Below are positions 1,822-41,042 of a stretch of DNA of 64,000 nucleotides, one piece after another. The stretch's first letter is position 1. Each line of letters begins with the position of its first letter. The stretch lies in assembly GCF_009914755.1 (NCBI RefSeq), contig NC_060925.1. One strand, written 5' to 3'. The stretch comes from the human T2T-CHM13v2.0 reference genome, Homo sapiens. The translations under genes were made by a program, and so were the position numbers. The notes beneath the pieces are model-generated. The model had not been told where the DNA came from and made no database searches. It saw nothing but the letters and a program-made list of their open reading frames with translations.

Positions 1822-3177
1822 CATTGTTCCTAGCACTTAGACAATTCTAAAAATATCTTCTGCACTATCTCTGAGTTTTGTAAACATCAGCTCTGTAGCT
1901 TCTCTGGAGAAACAGGCTTTTAGATGCTGGAAGGCATTAGAAAGTAATGGGGGCAGGGAGAATGAATTAGAAAGGACAGCAGTTTTCTACTACCTAGACC
2001 TGTGAGTGATCGTACCCAGGGCCTTCTGAAATAATTACAAATGCAAAGATTTCATTCAACGCACAACATGTCCATTGGATCCATCCACTTATCTGCTCTT
2101 TATATTTTTCTAGCTGTATCTTTCTCAGTTTCTCTGTCATAAAATGTGAGATTTCAAACAGATGATCTATAAAATCCCAAGCAGTTTTAATAAAATTCTG
2201 ATGATATAACTCTTTCTCCTTCTAAATCCCTGCCCTTATCAAATAGCTCAGAGAACAGAAACTTGGCTTAACCCAAATATGTTTTTTGCCCACAAACATC
2301 TATTCCAAGAATCAAGAAATACCTAACAGGGACAAAGAAAAAGAAGAACTGGAATTAATATAGATCTTTTTATATAATAAATCTCTTAAAAATTAAAAAA
2401 TTAAGTGAAAGAATAATTTTATAGAAAATCTGGAATATAGAGAAAAGAATAAAAGCACAACTATCTTAACAAATATGTAATATTCAATTGTATTTCTATT
2501 TTCTACTTTTTATATATAATTATAATCACATAGTTATACAAGTTTGCATCCTATTCTTTTCATTTAACATTGAATATCCAAAGCATTCCCACATGTATTG
2601 AATGACCTTTGTAATATTTCAATATTTTTATACTATGTCACACAGAGAATAAATTGGAATTTACTTAATACTTCTAATTTAGAAGATTTCTATAATTTTT
2701 TTTGTTTGTTTAACAAACAGAGATTTGTCCTTAACTTTTTTCTAAAATTTGGATCGTGTTTTAGGGTAGAATCTCAGAAATGGAAGATAAAGCAGGTTTC
2801 AAGGTCAAGGGAAAGCAATTGAGATGATCACAGAAACAGGAAGGACAAAGCCTGGAAAGATATTGTTTTATCAACAAGACCGCCTTGTTCTCTACATCTA
2901 TTTGAGGATGACATTTATTAATGACAAAGACTATGACCTGATTCTTTTAGAAGGTCCAAGATTGGCAGTAAACATCATAAAAAAATTAAAAGAGGAAAAA
3001 AAAGGAAGAAAAGGAGGAGGGAAGAAAAGAGTACAAAAGAATGACTAAACCTGAATTATTTTTATACATTTGTAGGTCTGACAAATTGATCTTCTATTTT
3101 CCTCTGTAAATGGCACTTACCTAATTGGGGAGAACACAATCAAGCAATATTGCTTTACACTCTATTTTTTGTGTGTA

Positions 3178-3569
3178 TGTGTGAGCAACATGGCTGTTTA
3201 TTTCACCTGGGTGCAGGCGGGCTGAGTCCGAAAAGAGTCAGCGAAGGGAGATAGGGGTGAGGCCGTTTTATAGGATTTGGGAAGGTAATGGAAAATTACA
3301 GTCAAAGGGGGTTGTTCTCTGGTGGGCAGGGGTGGGGGTCACAAGGTGCTCAGTGGGGGAGCTTCTGAGCCAGGAGAAGGGAATTCACAGGGTTAATCAC
3401 TCAGTTAAGGTGGGGCAGGAACAAATCACAATGGTGGAATGTCATCAGTTAAGGCGGGGCAGGGCCTTTTCACTTCTTTTGTGATTCTTCAGTTACTTCA
3501 GGCCATCTGGGCGTATACGTGCAAGTCACAGGGGATGTGATGGCTTGCCTTGGGCTCAGAGGCCTGACA
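3178..3569 (-). promoter_or_regulatory. 3' LTR7, U3+R only (U5 absent)
   Basis: Minus strand begins TGTCAGGCCTCTGAGCCCAAG at 3569; TATAAAA at 3266-3272; AATAAA at 3197-3202; stops at ...GCTCACACA without the AAGCCTGTTTGG U5 seen in the other copy. Confidence 0.92.
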
Positions 3570-3584
3570 TTCCTGTCTTCTTAT
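3570..3584 (-). other. HERV-H polypurine tract
   Basis: Minus strand TATAAGAAGACAGGAA abuts the TG of the 3' LTR. Confidence 0.8.
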
Positions 3585-3599
3585 ATTAATAAGAAAAAT

Positions 3600-6110
3600 A
3601 AAACAAAATAGTGTTGAAGTATTGGGGCGGCGAAAATTTTTGGGGGTGGTATGGAGAGAGAATGGGCGATGTTTCTCAGGGCTGCTTCAAGCGGGATTAG
3701 GGGCGGCGTGGGAACTTAGAGTGGGAGAGATTAAGCTGAAGGAAGATCTTGTGGAAAGGGGTGATATTGTGGGGTTGTTAGAAGAAACATTTGTCGTATA
3801 GAATGATTGGTGATGGCCTGGATACGGTTTTGTATGAACTGAAAAACGAAATGGAATAAGAGAAGGAGAAAACCAGGTATAAAAGGTCTAAGAATTGGGA
3901 GGACCTAGGACATCTGATTAGAGAGTGCCTAAGGAGATTCAGCATAGTCCTGCCAGCCAAGATTATTTATTTACTTTAAGAGCTTAGAGTGGCAGTTTGG
4001 GGATAGCACCAAGAGACATCAGCTGTGATGGCTTGGAGAAACAGTGTAAACCGGCAGTGTAAACAAGAGCAGGGCATGTGTGAGTAGATGAGAACGGTGA
4101 ATAGGAGTATGACTAGACAGAAGATAGTAGGGATGACAAGTTTTCTTGGGGGCACAGTCTAAGTTGGTCTGGTGTCTGGAATGAGACTGGGGCCTAATAA
4201 AAAGGAGTGTCTATACAGTAGCTCAAATGGGCTGTACCCTGTAGCATTCCGAGGACAGGCCTGAATTCCGAGAAGGGAAAGTGGTAAAAGTATTGTCCAG
4301 TCCTTTTTAAGTTGGTAGCTGAGCTTGGTGAGGTATGTTTTTAAAAGACCTTTAGTCCATTCTACTTTTCTTGAAGACGGAGGACCGTAAGGGATATAAA
4401 AGTTTCACTGAATACTAAGAGCCTGAAAAACTGCTTGGCTGATTTGACTAATAAAGGCTGGTCTGTTATCAGCCTGTATAGAGGTGGGAAGGCTAAACTG
4501 AGGAATTATGTCTGACAGAAGGGAAGAAATGACTGTGGTGGCCTTCTCAGACCCTGTAGGAAAGGCCTTTACTTATTCAGTGAAAGTGCCTATCTAGACT
4601 AAGAGGTATTTTAGTTTCCTGACTCGGGACATGTTGAGTAAAGCTAATTTGCCAGTCCTAGGTTGGGGCAAATCCTCGAGCTTGATGTGTAGGGAAGGGA
4701 GGGGGCCTGAATAATCCCAGAGGAGTAGTAGAATAGCAGATGGAACACTGAGAAGTTATTTCCTGGAGGATAGATTTCCACAATGGAAAGGAAATGAGAG
4801 GTTCTGAGAGGCGGGCTAGTGGCTTGTACTATAGCATAGCCTGCCTTTGCTGGTGTATGGCAATTAGGCCAGTGGAACTGCCATCAATAAATCAAGCGTG
4901 ATCAGGGTGAGGAACAGGAAAGAAGGAAATATGGGGAAATGGGGTGAATGTCAGGTGGATCAGAGAGATACAGTCATGGGGGTCAGGTGTGGTATCAGGA
5001 ATAATGTGGGAGGCCAGATTGAAGTCCGGGCCAGGAACAATGGTAACTGTGGGACTTAAAGAGTGAGTACAGCTGAAGGAGCCGGGGAGCAGAAAGTATA
5101 TGCGTCAGGTATGAGGAAGAAAATAGATTTTGGAAGTTATGAGAAATGTAGAGAGTGAGTTGAGCATAGTTTGTGATTTTTAGGGCCTCTAACAGTATTA
5201 AAGCAGCGGCAGCCGCTGTACACAGACATGAGGGCTAGGCTAAAACAGTAAGGTCAAGTTGTTTGGACAGAAAGGCTACAGGGTGTGGTCCTGGCTCTTC
5301 TGTAAGAATTCTGACCACGCTAACCATGCCTAGGAAGGAAAGGAGTTGTTGTTTTGTAGAAGGTGCTGGGGTTTGAGAGATCAGTCGGACACGATTGGCA
5401 GGGAGAGCACGTGTGTTTTTATGAGACTTATGCCGAGATAGGTAACAGATGAGGAAGAATTTGGGCTTGATTGAAGTAATAGGGGCTGTCTGTGAAGCTT
5501 TGCAGCCGTACAGCCTAGGTAATTTGCTGAGCTTAATGGGTGTCAGGGTCAGTCCAAGTGAAAGCGAAGAGAGGCTGGGATTAAGGGTGCAAAGGAATAG
5601 TAAAGAAAGCACGTTTGAGATCTAGAACAGAATAATGGGTTATAGAGGCAGGTATTGAGGATAGGAGAGTGTATGGGTTTGGCACCACAGGGTGGATAGG
5701 CAAAACAATTTGGTTGATAAGGCACAGATCCTGAACTAACTTGTAAGGCTTGTCTGGTTTTAGGACAGGTATAATGGGGGAATTGTAAGGAGAGTTTATA
5801 GGCTTAAAAAGGCCATGCTATAGCAGGCGAGTGATAACAGGCTTTAATGTTTTTAAAGCGTGCTGCGGGATGGGATATTGAGTGGGGTAAGGGTGATTAA
5901 GTTTTAATGAGATGGTAAGGGGTGCATGATCGGTCACCAAGGAGGGAGTAGAGGTATCTTATACTTGTGGGTTAAGGTAGGGGGGATACAAGAGGAGGAC
6001 GCAAAGGAGGCTTTGGATTGGGAAGAAGGGCGGCAATGAGATATAGCTGTAGTCCAGGACTAGTCAGGGAAGCAGATAATTTAGTTAAAGTGTCTCGGCC
6101 TAATAAGGGA
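3600..6110 (-). pseudogene. Deleted, disrupted HERV-H pol with small env remnant
   Basis: RT-thumb-like peptide TPAPSTKQQLLSFLGMV and PVAFLSKQLDLTVL in ORF 5235-5612; many stops; far shorter than an intact pol+env, as in the common deleted HERV-H form. Internal boundaries are approximate. Confidence 0.75.
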
Positions 6111-6129
6111 ACTGGGCAGGTGGGGATAA

Positions 6130-6340
6130 CTAAAAGGAGTGCTTAAAAGAGTATTGTCTAAGTTGGCACCAGAGTTGGGGAGTTTTAAGAGGTTTAGAAG
6201 CCTGGCCGTCAATACCCACAACAGTTATGGAGGCAAGGGAAACAGGACCTTGAAAAGAAGGTAATGTGGAGTGGGTAGCCTCCGTATTGATTAAGAAGGG
6301 GACGGGCTTACCTTCCACTGTGAGAGTTACCGGAAGCTCG
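6130..6340 (-). pseudogene. HERV-H protease remnant, catalytic motif lost
   Basis: EGKPVPFLINTEATHSTL: expected LIDTGA reads LINTEA; flap-like VVGIDG follows. Confidence 0.85.
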
Positions 6341-6498
6341 GCATCCGTGATGGTCTACGGGGCTTCCGAGGCGATCGGGCAGCATCAGTCTTTAGCCGCT
6401 AAGCCGAGAAGATCTGGGAAGGAGTCAGTCAGAGAGCCTTGGGCCAGAGTTCCAGGGGCTCTGGGAGTGGCTGCCAGGTGAGTTGAACAGTCCGATTT

Positions 6499-7480
6499 TC
6501 AGTGGGGTCCCACACAGATGGGACGTGGCTTAGGAGGAATCCTGGGCTGCGGGCATTCCTTGGCCCAGTAGCCAGATTTCCGGCATGTGTAGCAAGCTCC
6601 TGTGGGAGGAGGTTCTGGAGGAACTCCTGGCCGCTGCGGTTCAGGCGTTTGGAAGTTCTTGTGTGCTGGAGATGTGGCTGGGGTTTGTCTCACAGTGGAG
6701 GCAAGGAATTGCAATTTTTTCTGTTATTGTACACCTTGAAGGTGAGGTTAATTAAATCCTGTTGTGGGGTTTGAGGGCCAGATTCCAATTTTTGGAGTTT
6801 AATGTCGGGAGCAGATTGGGTAATAAAATGTATATTGAGAATAAGACGGCCTTTTGACCTTTTAGGGTCTAGGGCTGTAAAGCATCTCAGGATTGCTGCC
6901 AAACGAGCCATGAACTGGGCTGGATTTTTATATTTGATGAAAAAGCCTAAATGCTATCTGATTTGGGATAAAGAAAAAGGAGCATTAACCTTGACTATGC
7001 CTTTGGCTTTTTAAGAGTAAATTGCTGGGACAGGTTGGGGAGGGCTAGTCATGGAACAAAACTGCAAGCCGGACCAGGTGTGAGGAGGGGAGGTGAAAAA
7101 GAGATTATAGGGTGGAGGAGCAGAGGCTGAGGAAGAACTGGGACCTAGCTCGGCCTGGCGAGGAGCAGCCTGGGGAGGAAGGGAGAGGTCAGATGGGTCT
7201 GTAGAAAAGGAAGATTAGAAAGACTCAGCGACGCTTGGGGTTGGTACTGAGGGGACAGGCGGGAGGGAAAGAAGGAAGATTTGGGACGAGTTGCACTGGG
7301 CACAGAGACTAGGAAGGGACTGATGTGTAAAAGAATGCCTGGATGTCAGACACCTCAGACCCTTTGCCTATTTTACGACAAGAATTATTTAGATCTTGCA
7401 GGATGGAAAAATTCAAAGTGCCATTTTCTGGCTATTTGGAACTACTGTCGAGTTTGTATTGGGGTCAAGCGGCATTGCAG
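6499..7480 (-). pseudogene. HERV-H gag remnant (CA/NC)
   Basis: HFITQSAPDIKLQKLESGPQTPQQDLINLTFKVYNNR (capsid C-term) and zinc knuckle CYTCRKSGYWAKEC (CCHC with His changed to Tyr); frameshifted. Confidence 0.85.
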
Positions 7481-8324
7481 AAGAAAATAAGGCATTTAGG
7501 TTTTAGGTCAGGTGTGAGTTGAAGAGGTTTTAAGTTCTTAAGAATATAGGCTAAGGGAGAAGAAGGAGGAATGGAAGGTGGAAGCTTGCCCATAGTGAAG
7601 GAGGCAAGCCCAGACAAAAGAGTAGAGACACGGAGAAGGGGTTGGGGGTTCTTGCCCTCCAGAAAAGCAGAGAAGGGGTTGGGGCATGGAAATAAGGGAT
7701 TGGGGCACAGAGATAAGAGGTTGGGGTGTGGAAATAAGCGATTGGGGGGTTCTTGCCCCCTAGGAAAGCGGGACTTGCTGCTAAGGGTGAAGGAGAAGGG
7801 GTTGAGGGGTACTTGCCCCTGCCCCAGGAAAGCAGAGAAGGGGTAGAGACAAGGAGAGAAGGGGTTGAGGTACTTGCCCCTTCCCCAGAAAAGCGGGACT
7901 TGCCACTAAGGGTGAAGGAACAAGGCAGGCGTCCCTGCGTGGTCTGACACCCTTGAAACGTGGGTGTATAATCAGAGAGGCGTCCCTGCAATGATTAAAC
8001 ACGAAGGGAAGGCTGCCTTCCCAGTCCGTGACCGGCGCCGGAGTTTTGGGTCCACGGATAAAACGTGTCTCCTTTGTCTCTCCCAGAAAATGAAAGAAAT
8101 TGAAATTAAGAGAAGGGAGAGATTGAAGAGTGGAAAGGATAAAGTGGTTGAGGGACAGTGAGAGAGGTTGGAGAAGAGAGTAAGAAGAGGCCACTTACCT
8201 GATTTAAAATTGGTGAGATGTTACTTGGGCTGGTCGGTCTGAGGACCTGAGGTCATAGGTGGATCTTTCTCACGGAGCAAAGAACAGGAGTACAGGGGAT
8301 TGATCTCATAAGGGAGGTCCTCCG

Positions 8325-8342
8325 ATCCGAGTCACGGCACCA
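8325..8342 (-). other. Primer binding site for tRNA-His
   Basis: Minus strand TGGTGCCGTGACTCGGAT just after U5, complementary to the tRNA-His 3' end. Confidence 0.95.
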
Positions 8343-8344
8343 AA

Positions 8345-8451
8345 TTTCATGTGCGTCCCTGTGAAGAGACCACCAAACAGGCTTTGTGTGAGCAACATGG
8401 CTGTTTATTTCACCTGGGTGCAGGCGGGCTGAGTCTGAAAAGAGAGTCAGC
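8345..8451 (-). mobile_element. 5' LTR7, R+U5 only (U3 promoter absent)
   Basis: Starts GCTGACTCTCTTTTC, which lies 23 nt after TATAAAA in the other LTR; ends GCACATGAAA. Confidence 0.93.
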
Positions 8452-10439
8452 CTACACTCTATTTTTGCAAAAGTCTTTGTGTGATGAACAAAAAGGTTGA
8501 TTATGGAAGTCATTTTACACCGTAGGCAGAATGTTATTATTCTAATATGTGGTTTGGAGCTGGGGTGTGAAATTCTCCTTTACTGGAGATAGAAGAGAAT
8601 GGAATGTTATTTCTCATTTGGGAACACAATTTTGGAAGAATGACCAACTTTTTAAAACAAAACCTCTTCCACTACTAAAAATCTTAAAAAATTAAAGAAA
8701 AAGAGCCAATTCTTTGATTTCCTTTTGTATTTTTCTTTTATCAAAACTTCCTCATGTTCTACTAAACTTTCTTTTTTTCAGGATGTCTATGTCTCTATTT
8801 CCCAGTTCCCCAGTTTCGTTCCCTCTTTTGCTTCTATTTGGCAAGGGTGACCAGTTAACCTTTGAAGAACAGCCTGGGAAAATTTCCAAGGTGCTTAGCC
8901 ATAGACAATTTCATAGATTCCCTCTGCCTAACTGAAAGAAATAACAGGTTAAATCTGGAGCCACTGGGTAATGTCTAATTGCTTTTTGGCATAGCTCAAC
9001 CAAGGCATAAGCACTCCTAGCTGGGTTTGGGCTTGATATTCATAGATGAACTATTTTTCTTTGTATATATTTTTAATGCAGATCAATGCAAATCAGTCCA
9101 GAGAAGTAAAATCGTTTCAGAAAAAATTATATATGTAGTGGACAATCATGGCTGCTCGTAATCATTCAACCATTGATTCTGTCACATCATTGGTTTTAGA
9201 GGGACAGTAGGCTTAGGTGGGCTAAGAAAAGCAGGGAATGATTGTGAGTTTTTCAGCAGCTGCAGATAACTTTCTTTGTGTAGAGCACTTAATCTCTTAG
9301 AGTTTCAGTTTACAGCTCTGTAAAAATTAGTAGAGCGCAGCAATACTAACTGACCTCTGAAGTGATTTGGTGAAATACTATTAAAATTATGGAAAGTAAA
9401 TATCAAATGCTAGACAAACATTTAAGAATAACCCTTTTCTCTTTAATGGTTTCAAGTCCTGAGCTTTTCTCTACTTCCTGAATGATCTTTTTCCTTCTCT
9501 GCATCATCCTTTGTATATAATGTACAGTGCCTCAGCAAGGCTAGCTGAATGTTTGTGTTGTAGATAAATGCTCCTTTTCAATACTCTGAGCCTGCATCCT
9601 ATAACATGCCTGTGAATGATCTAATTCACTGGTACACAACTCTCAGGAGTATATGTTTTCAACAGAGTGAGTAGTACAGGCACAACGACCTACAGACCTT
9701 ACTCCCTGTATGAATAAACATAGAAAAAATACTTGATTCTGGTAATAGCACATTTTAAGTCATTTGGATTCTAGAAAATGCTTATTTCTGAAGCTTTACT
9801 TATTCATCCAACAATTATATATAAATTTAATGTTTGTATTCCTTCCTTTTTAGTTTTGGGAATTAATAGAGTATTAAAGAAGGGAAGTAAGTTCTATATT
9901 CTTAGTTGGAAGACTTGTATATAAGTAAACAAATTATACAATAATGTCAAAAAATCCATAAATGCTTTATAGATAGCAAAATAGGGTTGCATGAGACCCC
10001 ATGAAAAGGATAGCTACTTAGATTGAGTGGCCAAGGAAGGCTTTCTGAGTGGTAGCAGTTGCTTAAGAGCTGAATGATAAAAAAATATAAACCATCAGAT
10101 GAAACATTTCCATCTGCTGCCACCACCATGTCTCTCCACCTCGGGAACTCTGTCCTCTTCCTTGTTGCTATTGATGATCTCTCCCTGTGTGTCTCCCTCC
10201 CTTGTCAACTGGATTCTAGCTTCTTGTCCCCACTCAAGGGAATCACACAATTATTTCCTTGCTTTTCTGCAAAAACAAATATTCACTTTCTAATAGTCCA
10301 TTCTTATTGAGACCTAAGCATAATTGTAATTTTTCTTCTATCTTGAAAAATATTCTGACTCTACATCCCTTTCCTATTACAATCTCAATTATCCACTTTT
10401 TTAAATTGAACATTCCTTGAAAATTTTCCTTTTTGTCTC

Positions 10440-36900: not shown

Positions 36901-36970
36901 CTTTTCCTTTTGCTGCACCCACCTGAAGTATTTCTTTGGGTTTTTTTGTACCTACCCCCACGTAGATGTT

Positions 36971-37270
36971 TGTCTGTTTGTTTTTGAGATGGAGTCTCGC
37001 TCTGTCACCCAGCCTGGAGTGCAGTGGTGTGATCTCAGCTCACTGCAACCTCCGCCTCCCGGTTCAAGCAAACAATTCTCCTGCTTCAGCCTCCTGAGTA
37101 GCTGAGATTGTAGGTGTGCACCACCACGTCCAGCTAATTTTTGTATTTTTAGTAGAGACGGGGTTTCACCATGCTGGCCAGGCTGCTCTTGAACTCCTGA
37201 CCTCAGGTGATCTGCCCGCCTGAGCCTCCCAAAGTGCTGGGATTACAGGCATGAGCCCCTGCACCCAGCC
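36971..37270 (-). mobile_element. AluS element
   Basis: Complete dimeric Alu with tcctgacctcaggtgatc; short flanking repeat agatgtt. Confidence 0.95.
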
Positions 37271-37531
37271 CAGATGTTGACAGCAGGGTGGTTAAGAGTT
37301 GGGCCCTGAGCTCAGGACTTTGGGTTCAAGTACCAGGTTTGCTAATCACTAGCTAGGGGACATTGAGCATATTTTCTAATCTGTGTAAGCTTCAAATTTT
37401 TTGCTAAAGTATATTTTAAAATAACAATCCTTTAATGGGTTGCTAATGTTTGTCTTATAATTGATATGATGCACTTAAAAATAGTAAACAAATGTTTGTT
37501 ACTATTAAAATTTTTAGAGTTTCCATTTCTC

Positions 37532-40500
37532 CAACTTCATCATAGTGAATTATCTTTTTGATATGTTGTTGGATTTGGCTAGCAAGTATTTTGTTAAGGA
37601 TTTTAGTATCTATGTTCATCAGGGATATTGGTCTGTTGTTTTCTTTTTTGGTTATGTCCTTTCCTGGTTTTGGTATTAGGGTGATGCTGGCTTCATAGAA
37701 TGAATTAAGGAGGTTTCCCTTTCTCTATCTTGTGAAATACTATCAATAGGATTGGTACCAATCCTTCTTTGAATGTCTGGTATAATTCTGCTGTGAATCT
37801 GTCTGATCCTGGACTTATTTTGTTGGTAATTTTAAAACTATCATTTCAATCTCACTGCTTTTTATTGGTCTGTTTAGGGTATGTAATTCTTCCTGATTTA
37901 AGCTAGGAGGGTTGTATTTTTCTAGGAATGTATCTATCTTTTCCAGGTTTTCAAGTTTATGTGCATAAAGTTGTTCGTAGTAGCCTTGAATGATCTTTCG
38001 TATTTCTGTGGTGTCAGTTGTAACATTTCCCATTTTGTTTCTTATTGAGGTTATTTGGATTTTCTCTCTTCTTTTCTTGGTTAATCTTGTTAATGGTCTA
38101 TCAATTCTATTTATCTTTTCAAAGAACCAGCTTTTTGTTTCATTTATCCTTTGAATTTTTTTATTGTTTCAATTTTATTTAGTTCTGTTCTGATCTTGGT
38201 TATTTCTGTTCTTCTGCTGGGTTTGGGTTTGTTTTGTTCTTGTTTCTCTAGTTCCTTGAGGTGTGACCTTAGGATGTCAGTTTGTGCTCTTTTGGTCATT
38301 TTAATGTAGGTGTTTAGGGCTGTGAACTTTCCTCTTAGCACTGCCTTTGCTGTATCCCGGAGGTTTTGATAGATTGTATCACCATTGTCGTTCAGTCTGA
38401 AGAATTTTTTAATTTCCATCTTGATTTTGTTTTTGGCCCAATGATCATTTAGGAGCAGGTTATTTAATTTCCATGTTTTTGCATGGTTTTGAGGTCCTTT
38501 TTGGAGTTGATTTCCAGTTTTATTCCATTGGGGTCAGAGAGAGTGCTTGATATAATTTTGATTTTCTTAAATTTATAGAGTCTCATTTTGTGGCCTATCA
38601 TATGGTCTATCTTGGAGAAGCATCCATGCACTGTTGAATAGAACATGTATTCTTCAGTTATTAGATGGAATGTTCTTTATATATCTGTTAAGTCCATTTA
38701 TTCCAAGGTGTAGTTTAAATCCATTGTTTCTTTGTTGACTTTCTGTCTTGATGACCTGTCTAGTGCTGTCAGTGGAGTATTGGAGTCCCCCACTATTATT
38801 GTATTGCTGTGTATCTCATTTCATAGCAGAAATTGTTCTATAAATTTGGGAGCTCCAGTGTTAGGTGTATATATGTTTAAGACTGTGATATTTTCCTGTT
38901 GGACAAGGCCTTTTACCATTATATAATGTCCTCTTTGTCTTTTCTAACTGCTGTTTCTTTAAAGTTTGTTTTGTTTGATATAAGAATAGCTACCCAAGCT
39001 TACTTTTGGTGTCCATTTGCATGAAATACCTTTTCCCACCCATTTACTTTAAGTTTATGTGAGTCCTAATGAGTTAGGTGAGTCTCTTGAAGGCAGCAGA
39101 TAGTTGGTCAATTTTTATTCATTCTGCTGTTCTGTATCTTTTAAGTGAAGCATTTAGGCCATTTACATTGAATGTTAGTATTGAGATGTGAAGTACCACT
39201 CCATTCGTTGTGCTATTTGTTGCCTGCATACTTTGGGGTTTTTTGTTTGTTTGTTTGTTTTTGATTTTTAAATTGTATTTTGGTTTTATAGGTTCTGTGA
39301 GCTTTATGCTTTAAAGAGGTTCTGTTTTGATGTGTCCAGCATTTGTTTCAAGATTTAGAGCTCCTTTTAACAGTTCTTGTACTGGTGGCTTGGTAGTGGC
39401 AAATTCTTACAGCATTTGTTTGTCTGAAAAGGACTGTATCTTTCCTTCATATATGATGCCTAGTTTTTCTGGATACAAAATTCTTGGCTGATAATTGTTT
39501 TGTTTGAGGAGGCTGAAGATAGGGCCCCAATCCCTTCTAACTTATACGGTTTCTGCTGAGAAATCTGCTGTTAATCTGACAGGTTTTTCTTTATAGGTTA
39601 CCTGGTGCTTTTGTCTCACAGCTCTTAAAATCATTTTCTTTGTCTTAACTTTAGATAACCTGATGACAATATGCCTAGGTGATAATCTTTTTATTTTTAT
39701 TGTACTTTAAGTTTTAGGGTACATGTGCACATTGTGCAGGTTAGTGACATATGTATACATGTGCCATGCTGGTGCGCTGCACCCACTAACTCGTCATCTA
39801 GCATTAGGTATATCTCCCAATGCTATCCCTCCCCCCTCCCCCCACCCCACAACAGTCCCCAGACTGTGATATTCCCCTTCCTGTGTCCATGTGATCTCAT
39901 TGTTCAAATCCCACCTATGAGTGAGAATATGCGGTGTTTGGTTTTTTGTTCTTGCGATAGTTTACTGAGAATGATGATTTCCAATTTCATCCATGTCCCT
40001 ACAAAGGACATGAAATCATCATTTTTTATGGCTGCATAGTATTCCATGGTGTATATGTGCCACATTTTCTTAATCCAATCTATCATTGTTGGACATTTGG
40101 GTTGGTTCCAAGTGTTTGCTATCGTGAATAATGCCGCAATAAACATACGTGTGCATGTGTCTTTATAGCAGCATGATTTATAGTCCTTTGGGTATATACC
40201 CAGTAATGGGATGGCTGGGTCAAATGGTATTTCTAGTTCTAGATCCCTGAGGAATCGCCACACTGACTTCCACAATGGTTGAACTAGTTTACAGTCCCAC
40301 CAACAGTGTAAAAGTGTTCCTATTTCTCCACATCCTCTCCAGCACCTGTTGTTTCCTGACTTTTTAATGATTGCCATTCTAACTGGTGTGAGATAGTATC
40401 TCATTGTGGTTTTGATTTGCATTTCTCTGATGGCCAGTGATGATGAGCATTTTTTCATGTGTTTTTTGGCTGCATAAATGTCTTCTCCTAGGTGATAATC

Positions 40501-41042
40501 TTTTTGCAACGAATTTCCCAGGTTTTCTTTGTGCTTCTTGTATTTGGATGTCTAGGTCTCTAGCAAGGCCAGAAAGTTTTCCTTGATTATTCCCCCAAAT
40601 ATATTTTCCAAACTTCTAGATTTCTCTTCTTCCTCAGGAACACCAATTATTCTTAGGTTTGGTCATTTAACAGAATCACAGACTTCTTGGCGGCTTTGTT
40701 CATATTTTCTTATTCTTTTTTCTTTGTCTTTGTTGGATTGGGTTAATTTGAAGATCTCGTCTTCAAGCTCTGAATTCCTTTCTTCTACTTGTTCAATTCT
40801 ATTGCTGAGATTTTCTGGAGCATTTTGCATTTCTATAAGTGTATCCAATGTTTCCTGAAGTTTTGATTGTTTTTTTCTTTAAGCTATCTATTTCCTTGAA
40901 TATTTCTCCCTTCACTTCCTGTATTGTTTTTTGGATTTCCTTGCATTGGGCTTTGCCTTTCTCTGGTGCCTCCCTGATTAGCTTGATAACTAAACTTCTG
41001 AATTCTTTTTCAGGTAAATCAGGGATTTCTTCTTGGTTTGGA
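37532..41042 (-). mobile_element. Older primate L1 (L1PB-like) internal fragment: ORF1 plus ORF2 endonuclease region
   Basis: ORF1-like NQEEIPDLPEKEFRSLVIKLI; ORF2-like [38 protein letters not shown]; no 5' UTR, 3' UTR or polyA. Confidence 0.9.
39693..40486 (-). mobile_element. Young 5'-truncated L1 (L1PA2-like) nested in the older L1
   Basis: Open ORF2 C-terminus ([18 protein letters not shown]); 3' UTR gctagatgacGAGttagtgggtgcagcgc (non-Ta); 19-bp TSD cctaggtgataatcttttt at 39674-39692 and 40487-40505. Confidence 0.95.

What the first reader, a model, noticed from the sequence alone, without database searches (positions are those of the whole stretch)
3156..8466. HERV-H copy mobilised as mRNA by LINE-1 (retroviral processed pseudogene)
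Seen: the 5' LTR lacks U3 and starts at R (8451). The 3' LTR lacks U5 and ends about 19 nt after AATAAA, followed by a short A-rich remnant (minus strand ...CACACATACACACAAAAAA). A perfect 14-bp repeat tacactctattttt flanks the element, and the empty site reads TTTTT/GC. Known: retroviral integrase yields two full LTRs with 4-6-bp TSDs (5 bp for HERV-H), whereas L1 target-primed reverse transcription (TPRT) yields mRNA-shaped inserts with polyA and ~7-20-bp TSDs at T-rich sites. This route is well known for HERV-W and much less commonly described for HERV-H. Inference: L1 ORF2p copied a full-length HERV-H RNA in the germline or early embryo, a second dispersal route for LTR7 regulatory DNA that standard annotation would label simply as a truncated provirus.
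Basis: partly seen in the sequence, partly recalled or inferred. Interest (0 to 1): 0.85.

Follow-up and report, generated by a model that had tools for sequence, protein, structure and literature searches.

The report
HERV-H RNA copy inserted by LINE-1
This 5.3-kb HERV-H element is a DNA copy of a retroviral RNA pasted in by LINE-1 machinery, not an integrated provirus, and the same genome holds dozens of similar copies.

Summary
On the minus strand, window 8452..3170 is a HERV-H copy. It starts at the LTR transcription start (no 5' U3) and ends 19 nt after AATAAA in the 3' LTR (no 3' U5). It is flanked by a perfect 14-bp duplication, TACACTCTATTTTT (3156-3169 and 8453-8466). No 14-nt match appeared in 8,365 same-spacing or 19,881 random window pairs. 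The A-tail is the weak point: only TACACACA separates the LTR end from the A-rich duplication.

The L1 reading is strongly supported, mostly by genome-wide recurrence. Fifty-one loci carry the LTR7-type R end followed by poly(A) (control 0). Twenty-three copies, this one included, start at the same nucleotide without U3. Besides this one, thirteen have both ends mapped, each with a 10-17-bp duplication. One is doubly spliced and one is R-only. Ten of 11 unbiasedly found R-start copies carry a non-templated G before the start, against 0 of 26 U3-bearing LTRs (p = 3e-8), which fits a copied cap. A control provirus has complete LTRs and a 5-bp duplication.

This is a new member of a known kind (HERV-W-type processed pseudogenes). 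Six literature searches found no description for HERV-H, but two key papers were not held. The orthologous empty site could not be checked here.

The parts
3156..3169 (.). Target-site duplication, copy next to the element's 3' end (minus-strand reading AAAAATAGAGTGTA)
   Evidence: family D5, 100% identical to 8453-8466; only 2 matches in the window, 0 expected; 0 of 8,365 and 0 of 19,881 control pairs reach 14 nt.
3170..3177 (-). Degenerate tail remnant TACACACA between the LTR end and the duplication. The boundary with the A-rich duplication is ambiguous.
   Evidence: read directly. Another R-to-R copy (L006/L062) has a similarly decayed tail, ACAACAACAACAAAAAAAA.
3178..3242 (-). R region of the 3' LTR, ending at the poly(A) site. 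AATAAA lies at 3202-3197 and the LTR sequence stops 19 nt later. No U5 follows.
   Evidence: family D3: 60 nt, 98% identical to the 5' R at 8385-8444. The canonical continuation into U5 is seen in the 5' LTR and at 519 exact genome sites.
3243..3569 (-). Complete U3 of the 3' LTR (starts TGTCAGG at 3569; TATAAAA at 3272-3266). It overlaps the RefSeq 'enhancer' 3190-3753 given by the hub.
   Evidence: It aligns to the U3 of other copies at 71-96% identity. The name LTR7 is recalled and comes from no call.
3570..8324 (-). Internal HERV-H region, unspliced, with all frames broken (longest stop-to-stop frame 147 aa). Remnants lie in retroviral order: Gag_p30 6953-6690, zinc knuckle 6723-6499, protease 6142-5972 (weak), integrase core 4572-4405 (weak). 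A purine-rich tract (3584-3570) precedes the 3' LTR.
   Evidence: Gag_p30 scores 29.8 bits against a cut-off of 27.4. zf-CCHC, RVP and rve are below their cut-offs. The region is collinear at 88-91% with other copies and 95-96% identical to its nearest relatives over 2 kb.
8198..8201 (-). Major splice donor CAG|GT (cut between 8199 and 8198). It is retained with its intron, so the template RNA was unspliced.
   Evidence: The spliced copy L079 joins exactly here (element positions 1-255 to 1943).
8325..8342 (-). Primer-binding site TGGTGCCGTGACTCGGAT, complementary to the 3' end of tRNA-His
   Evidence: the complementary 15-mer ends a predicted tRNA-His(GTG) gene in 7 of 9 loci scanned.
8345..8384 (-). 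U5 of the 5' LTR (a TT spacer at 8344-8343 precedes the primer-binding site)
   Evidence: Alignments to LTR-only loci stop at element position 108, which is 8345.
8385..8451 (-). R of the 5' LTR, beginning at the transcription-start G (8451). No U3 lies upstream.
   Evidence: The same start is used by 22 other copies without U3.
8452..8452 (-). Extra G not templated by the LTR (position -2 before CTGACTC). It is read as a copy of the RNA cap.
   Evidence: G at this position in 10 of 11 R-start copies found without reference to this base, against 0 of 26 U3-bearing LTRs. Fisher p = 3.2e-8.
8453..8466 (.). Target-site duplication, copy next to the element's 5' end. The first-strand nick is inferred between 8466 and 8467 on the + strand (TATTTTT/GC).

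Best explanation
Window 8452..3170 (minus strand) is a retrocopy of a full-length, unspliced, capped and polyadenylated HERV-H RNA, inserted by LINE-1-type target-primed reverse transcription.

Steps:
1. A source HERV-H provirus was transcribed from the start site in its 5' LTR, a G 31 nt after the first T of TATAAAA. The RNA ended at the poly(A) site in its 3' LTR R, 19 nt after AATAAA.
2. The RNA was used in trans by L1 ORF2p.
3. The endonuclease nicked the window's + strand at TATTTTT/GC. The T run primed cDNA synthesis on the poly(A) tail.
4. Reverse transcription ran to the very 5' end and copied one extra G from the cap.
5. A second nick 14 bp away gave the TACACTCTATTTTT duplication.

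The product has R-U5 at its 5' end, so the body has no promoter. It has a complete U3-R at its 3' end, so one outward-facing LTR promoter/enhancer remains.

Shown: the anatomy, the duplication, the recurrence of the same architecture elsewhere, and the extra G. Inferred: that the enzyme was L1 ORF2p, that the extra G comes from the cap, that the event was in the germline, and its age. The age is probably many millions of years, because the nearest relatives are only 95-96% identical.
For: (1) Ends coincide with RNA ends. There is no 5' U3 and no 3' U5. R is 67 nt in the 5' LTR and matches the 3' R (D3).

(2) A perfect 14-bp duplication abuts both ends and is far beyond chance.

(3) The nick site has five T before the cut.

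(4) The architecture recurs in the genome:
- R end plus A10, exact: 9 other loci, reversed-pattern control 0.
- Same pattern with up to 3 mismatches: 51 loci, control 0. The canonical R-U5 32-mer has 519 exact sites.
- Of the 9 loci, 7 start at the same R nucleotide without U3 and 2 are 5'-truncated. All 9 have 9-19-bp flanking repeats, some with one mismatch or an indel, and A tails of at least 12 nt, some interrupted.

(5) A 5'-end pattern found 21 sites, control 0. Eighteen of the 21 have no U3 upstream. In total there are 23 distinct R-start copies, this one included. Thirteen others have both ends mapped, with 10-17-bp duplications.

(6) RNA and L1 signatures in relatives:
- L079 is doubly spliced at GT donors, with an A26 tail and a 15-bp duplication.
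- L039 is R only plus poly(A).
- T_C4 has a 5' inversion of the kind twin priming gives.

(7) Non-templated G: 10 of 11 against 0 of 26, p = 3e-8. Extra G from the m7G cap in L1 events is discussed in passages of PMC4038843.

(8) Control: an ordinary provirus (C1:208.695-208.701 Mb) has complete LTRs and a 5-bp duplication, GTCAG.

(9) Both flanks are single-copy, so the locus is an independent insertion.
Against: - This locus has no convincing poly(A) tail. Only TACACACA (4 of 8 bases are A) separates the LTR end from the duplication. The A run belongs to the duplication.
- The bases 3' of the nick are GC, not the AA of the textbook TTTT/AA site.
- No orthologous empty site could be examined, so the pre-insertion state is inferred.
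- The enzyme is inferred from hallmarks only.
- Of the 51 poly(A)-ended loci, I examined the 3' side of 25 and the 5' side of 18. Of the 29 with the CCTTG variant, I examined only 4.
- For T_C3 no duplication was recognised.
Confidence: 0.93

Rival explanations
1. An ordinary integrase-made provirus later lost its 5' U3 and 3' U5 by two separate deletions. The 14-bp repeat would be coincidence or microhomology.
For: Old proviruses are often truncated. The tail at this locus is poor.
Against: Both deletions would have to end exactly at the RNA start and at the poly(A) site. They would also have to leave a perfect 14-mer abutting each end, with a chance of about 2e-6 and 0 of 28,246 control pairs. 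The same end points recur at 22 other loci with their own long duplications. The control provirus shows the expected 5-bp duplication.
Confidence: 0.02
2. The element is an RNA-derived copy made without L1. For example, cDNA made by a retroviral reverse transcriptase could have been captured at a chromosome break.
For: The tail is short. The nick site deviates from TTTT/AA on its 3' side. HERV-H RNA can be reverse-transcribed by retroviral enzymes supplied in trans (established knowledge, recalled).
Against: Retroviral cDNA synthesis regenerates full LTRs rather than an R-to-R product. Break capture does not give a 14-bp staggered duplication beginning with a T run that can prime on poly(A). 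Related copies have long A tails, A-first duplications and one twin-priming-type inversion.
Confidence: 0.04
3. The locus is a DNA-level duplicate (segmental duplication) of another truncated copy.
For: None found.
Against: About 450 nt of each flank matches only itself in the genome. The nearest relatives of the body are only 95-96% identical (40 of 1,209 candidates scored).
Confidence: 0.01

Closest known systems
HERV-W (HERV17/LTR17) processed pseudogenes made by L1 (Pavlicek 2002, as summarised in passages of Grandi 2016, PMC5016936)
   Same: R-U5 at the 5' end, U3-R at the 3' end, a poly(A) tail, a variable 5-15-bp duplication and a TT/AAAA-type insertion motif. The body has no promoter.
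   Different: This is a different retroviral group: a tRNA-His primer-binding site and an LTR7-type LTR. For HERV-W these copies make up a large share of the group. Here they are a small minority (8 exact R+A10 sites against 519 exact R-U5 sites). This copy's tail has almost vanished.
HERV-K(HML-2) locus 2q32.1, a retrotransposed spliced rec-like mRNA (Schmitt 2013, PMC3590776, abstract and passages)
   Same: A single HERV RNA copied by L1 machinery, with a 13-nt duplication, a short A stretch and partial LTRs.
   Different: That copy is spliced and beta-retroviral. This one is an unspliced full-length gamma-retroviral RNA. The spliced HERV-H counterpart exists elsewhere (L079).
Ordinary HERV-H provirus
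   Same: The same internal sequence, primer-binding site and LTR type. It is collinear with other copies at 88-96% identity.
   Different: An ordinary copy has two complete LTRs (TGTCAGG...GTGAAA) and a 5-bp duplication (control C1:208.695-208.701 Mb). This one has neither.
Cellular processed pseudogenes and SVA, which are L1-mobilised in trans (established knowledge, recalled)
   Same: Trans use of L1 ORF2p on a polyadenylated Pol II RNA, with long duplications, 5' truncations and inversions.
   Different: The template here is a retroviral genomic RNA that carries its own promoter sequence in the 3' U3.

Membership tests
L1-made (TPRT) retrocopy / processed pseudogene | The 5' end lies at the transcription start of the source, with no promoter sequence upstream | tested here: met
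   The element starts at G 8451 (plus an extra G at 8452), 31 nt after the TATAAAA position. No U3 lies upstream.
L1-made (TPRT) retrocopy / processed pseudogene | The 3' end lies at the polyadenylation site | tested here: met
   LTR sequence stops 19 nt after AATAAA and U5 is absent. The same end point occurs at 51 poly(A)-ended loci.
L1-made (TPRT) retrocopy / processed pseudogene | A poly(A) tail | tested here: inconclusive
   Only TACACACA remains, and the adjoining A run belongs to the duplication. Relatives have A tails of at least 12 nt, some interrupted.
L1-made (TPRT) retrocopy / processed pseudogene | A target-site duplication of about 7-20 bp | tested here: met
   A 14-bp perfect repeat.
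L1-made (TPRT) retrocopy / processed pseudogene | A T-rich endonuclease nick site (TTTT/AA-like) | tested here: inconclusive
   The site is TTTTT/GC. The T run is present but the 3' side deviates.
L1-made (TPRT) retrocopy / processed pseudogene | An empty orthologous or allelic site with one copy of the duplicated sequence | not testable with these tools
   No primate genomes are held. No paralogous empty site exists in this genome.
L1-made (TPRT) retrocopy / processed pseudogene | Introns removed | tested here: not met
   The major donor CAG|GT (8199/8198) and its intron are retained. The template was the unspliced genomic-length RNA, as in full-length HERV-W pseudogenes. A spliced HERV-H copy exists elsewhere (L079).
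HERV-H | A primer-binding site complementary to tRNA-His | tested here: met
   The site is at 8342-8325. Its complement ends a predicted tRNA-His(GTG) gene in 7 of 9 loci scanned.
HERV-H | A gamma-retroviral gag-pro-pol order | tested here: met
   Gag_p30 is above its cut-off. The zinc knuckle, protease and integrase remnants are below their cut-offs but lie in the right order.
HERV-H | An LTR of the LTR7 family | not tested
   No repeat library is held, so the name is recalled. The LTR matches hundreds of copies that flank the same internal sequence.

The most novel reading that the evidence does not exclude
HERV-H would be a second human endogenous retrovirus group repeatedly mobilised by L1, and not only HERV-W. 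T2T-CHM13 holds at least about 60 such insertions: 51 poly(A)-ended loci, plus copies with decayed tails such as this one. They include full-length, spliced, R-only, 5'-truncated and 5'-inverted forms. Most full-length ones carry a cap-derived G. Standard annotation files them as truncated proviruses. Each deposits one outward-facing LTR7-type promoter/enhancer without a driven body.
Probability: 0.55. Interest if true: 0.55.

Novelty: new member of a known kind. Interest (0 to 1): 0.48.

Why it matters
- **Dating and classification:** these copies are not proviruses. LTR-LTR divergence dating, solo-LTR/provirus ratios and 'full-length HERV-H' counts should exclude them. One classification paper says it did not separate processed pseudogenes from proviruses (PMC4724089, passages).
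- **Expression studies:** the body has no promoter, which matters for locus-level HERV-H expression work in pluripotent cells. The 3' U3-R is intact and overlaps a RefSeq 'enhancer' here.
- **Biology:** the class shows that HERV-H RNA and active L1 ribonucleoprotein met in heritable cells many times. It also qualifies the statement that HERV-W is the sole group mobilised by L1 (PMC5537654 abstract).
- **Mapping RNA ends:** the shared start nucleotide, the extra G and the R-only copy mark the LTR's transcription start and poly(A) site from genomic DNA alone.

Tried and rejected
- **Papers not held:** Pavlicek 2002 could not be read. Belshaw 2005 is recalled only; I made no call for it. Either may mention HERV-H copies.
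- **Literature searches:** searches found no description of HERV-H processed pseudogenes. I read passages in PMC5537654, PMC5016936, PMC6298018, PMC12228294, PMC4724089, PMC5753468, 10.64898/2026.04.29.721355, PMC11359688, PMC3590776, PMC5775608 and PMC9343867. No supplements were opened.
- **Fetch limit:** I fetched 502-nt windows instead. As a result, the 5' ends of 9 of the 13 further A/C-variant loci remain unmapped.
- **Paralogous empty site:** none found. Both flanks are single-copy.
- **CCTTG variant:** I suspected that loci with this R variant might belong to another LTR family. In the 3 of 29 examined for U3, it is 91% identical to the 3' LTR of a HERV-H retrocopy, and one carries HERV-H internal sequence. 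A fourth, L079, carries a HERV-H primer-binding site region. The other 25 were not examined.
- **T_C3:** no duplication was recognised.
- **Source copy:** the nearest relatives are only 95-96% identical over 2 kb (40 of 1,209 candidates scored), so no source can be named and no precise age given.
- **Pol remnants:** Pfam matches are below the cut-offs.
Full report
**What is there**

Read on the minus strand, window 8452..3170 (5,283 nt) is a HERV-H copy.

- It begins with G (8452), then GCTGACTCTCTTTTC (8451 onward).
- R runs to 8385 and U5 to 8345. After a TT spacer comes the primer-binding site TGGTGCCGTGACTCGGAT (8342-8325).
- The complement of that site ends a predicted tRNA-His(GTG) gene in 7 of 9 loci scanned. 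The 'H' assignment is therefore tested and not only recalled.
- The body keeps the major splice donor CAG|GT (8199/8198) with its intron.
- Gag_p30 (above cut-off) and weak zinc-knuckle, protease and integrase remnants lie in retroviral order. No frame is longer than 147 aa.
- The 3' LTR starts at TGTCAGG (3569) and has TATAAAA at 3272-3266 and AATAAA at 3202-3197. It stops at 3178, 19 nt after AATAAA, without the U5 that follows the same R in the 5' LTR.
- Then come TACACACA (3177-3170) and the duplication.

- TACACTCTATTTTT occurs twice in the window, exactly at the two ends (family D5; 0 expected in 100 shuffles).
- In 8,365 window pairs at the same spacing the longest shared word was 11. 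In 19,881 random pairs it was 12. The observed value is 14, and the analytic chance is about 2e-6.
- The start G lies 31 nt after the first T of TATAAAA, judged from the intact 3' LTR and from 26 other U3-bearing LTRs.
- One correction: the 'A-rich remnant' is only 8 nt. The A run beside it is the first part of the duplication, so this locus alone gives weak evidence for a poly(A) tail.

**Recurrence in the same genome**

The window's assembly could be searched.

- *Exact 3'-end pattern.* The 22-nt R end followed within 8 nt by A10 matches 9 other loci, with 0 for the reversed control.
- *Relaxed 3'-end pattern.* With up to 3 mismatches, the fixed 32-mer matches 51 loci, control 0. Twenty have CCATG as here, 2 have CCCTG and 29 have CCTTG. 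The canonical R-U5 32-mer has 519 exact sites, against 8 exact for R+A10.
- *The 9 loci.* I fetched about 8.3 kb for each.
  - Seven start at the same R nucleotide with no U3. Six of these are 2.8-5.4 kb and collinear with this element at 88-91%. One (L039) is just the roughly 66-nt R plus poly(A).
  - Two are 5'-truncated.
  - All 9 have flanking repeats of 9-19 bp beginning with A-rich sequence, some with one mismatch or an indel, and A tails of at least 12 nt, some interrupted.
- *Other poly(A)-ended loci.* I examined sixteen only around the 3' end. All 16 align to U3-R and stop at the R end.
- *CCTTG-variant loci.* Three were extended.
  - Their U3 is 91% identical to the 3' LTR of a HERV-H retrocopy.
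  - One is a 5'-truncated HERV-H copy with the duplication AGAAACATGG.
  - One has a 53-nt 5' inversion of the twin-priming type and the duplication GTGTTTTCTCA.
  - One showed no recognisable duplication.
- *5'-end pattern.* A non-T base, then GG, then the R start gave 21 matches, control 0.
  - Eighteen have no U3 upstream.
  - Two are the two LTRs of one ordinary provirus.
  - One is preceded by an inverted copy of R.
- *Totals.* I saw 23 distinct R-start copies, including this one. Thirteen others have both ends mapped, with duplications of 10-17 bp.
- *Informative members.*
  - L006/L062 has a decayed tail like this locus and was missed by the 3' pattern, so the counts are lower bounds.
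  - L079 is a doubly spliced HERV-H RNA copy (element positions 1-255, 1943-2120, 4875-end). It has GT donors, an A26 tail and a 15-bp perfect duplication.

**A further signature**

- Eleven R-start copies were found without reference to the base before the start G. In 10 of them that base is G.
- In 26 U3-bearing LTRs it is C or T in every case. Fisher p = 3.2e-8.
- In one of the ten (L036) the G could belong to the duplication.
- A non-templated 5' G is what copying of the m7G cap gives. Passages of PMC4038843 report such extra G residues in engineered L1 events and in cDNA made by a retroviral enzyme.

**Control and independence**

- An ordinary provirus (C1:208.695-208.701 Mb) has complete LTRs and a 5-bp duplication, GTCAG.
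- About 450 nt of each flank of the window's element matches only itself in the genome, so the locus is an independent insertion.
- Over 2 kb of the body, the nearest relatives are 95-96% identical (40 of 1,209 candidates scored).
- No source copy can therefore be named. The insertion is probably old, which is inference only.

**Mechanism**

The best reading (0.93) is as follows.

1. A full-length, unspliced HERV-H RNA was capped at the LTR start and polyadenylated in the 3' R.
2. It was copied by L1 ORF2p after a nick at TATTTTT/GC on the + strand.
4. A second nick 14 bp away gave the duplication.

The anatomy, the duplication, the recurrence and the extra G are shown. The enzyme, the cap origin of the G, the germline setting and the age are inferred.

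Rivals:
- Two precise deletions of a provirus plus a chance repeat (0.02).
- An RNA-derived copy inserted without L1 (0.04).
- A DNA-level duplicate (0.01).

**Comparison with what is known**

- The architecture is that of HERV-W processed pseudogenes: R-U5 ... U3-R, a tail, a 5-15-bp duplication and a TT/AAAA motif. These features are summarised in passages of PMC5016936.
- One L1-made HML-2 copy is also described (PMC3590776).
- A review abstract calls HERV-W the sole group mobilised by L1 (PMC5537654).
- A classification paper did not separate processed pseudogenes from proviruses (PMC4724089).
- Searches found no description for HERV-H.
- Pavlicek 2002 was not held, and Belshaw 2005 is recalled only. 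An earlier mention cannot be excluded.

**Verdict**

This is a new member of a known kind. The locus is not surprising in mechanism, because L1 copies abundant polyadenylated RNAs. The size and variety of the HERV-H class, and the cap-G signature, are worth a census. Interest is 0.48.

**What stays open**

- The orthologous empty site and the age.
- The 5' ends of most of the 51 poly(A)-ended loci, and the family assignment of 25 unexamined CCTTG-variant loci.
- Whether the 3' LTR here acts as the annotated enhancer.

Noticed in passing
L039 (G000:C14:33487227-33487330, minus strand): A retrocopy made only of the roughly 66-nt R region plus a long A tail, flanked by the 13-bp duplication AAAACTCTGTTCT. 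It looks like a copy of a short RNA that started at the LTR start site and was polyadenylated in the same LTR.
   Followed up: partly
L079 (G000:C12:113998710-113999530, plus strand): An 0.8-kb copy of a doubly spliced HERV-H RNA (exon joins at element positions 255/1943 and 2120/4875). It has an A26 tail and a perfect 15-bp duplication, AGAAATATCTGATAC.
   Followed up: partly
L076 (G000:C9:27012946, minus) and L082 (G000:C19:42779183, plus): Two R-start copies run through R-U5 exactly to the LTR end. They then continue into an Alu fragment, at a different Alu position in each, and an A run. They could be copies of chimeric transcripts from solo LTRs, or template-switch chimeras. This is unexplained.
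   Followed up: no
L067 (G000:C3:90149542, plus): An R-U5 segment is directly preceded by an inverted copy of R, giving a head-to-head R palindrome. This is unexplained.
   Followed up: no
T_C4 = L060+L057 (G000:C4:145683200-145683640, plus): A 5'-truncated LTR copy has a 53-nt inverted segment at its 5' end and the duplication GTGTTTTCTCA. This is the pattern that L1 twin priming gives.
   Followed up: partly
window 7620-7920 (minus strand, between the primer-binding site and gag): A block of degenerate repeats with a 21-nt period and longer units of about 60-125 nt lies in the pre-gag leader of the element.
   Followed up: no
window about 36950-41000, minus strand: A degenerate LINE-1. Pfam finds ORF1 trimerisation and RNA-binding domains at 40878-40379 and the start of a reverse transcriptase at 37724-37455.
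   Followed up: partly
window 2975-3035: A purine-rich low-complexity stretch (runs of A, GA and GGA) lies about 120 nt from the insertion site.
   Followed up: no
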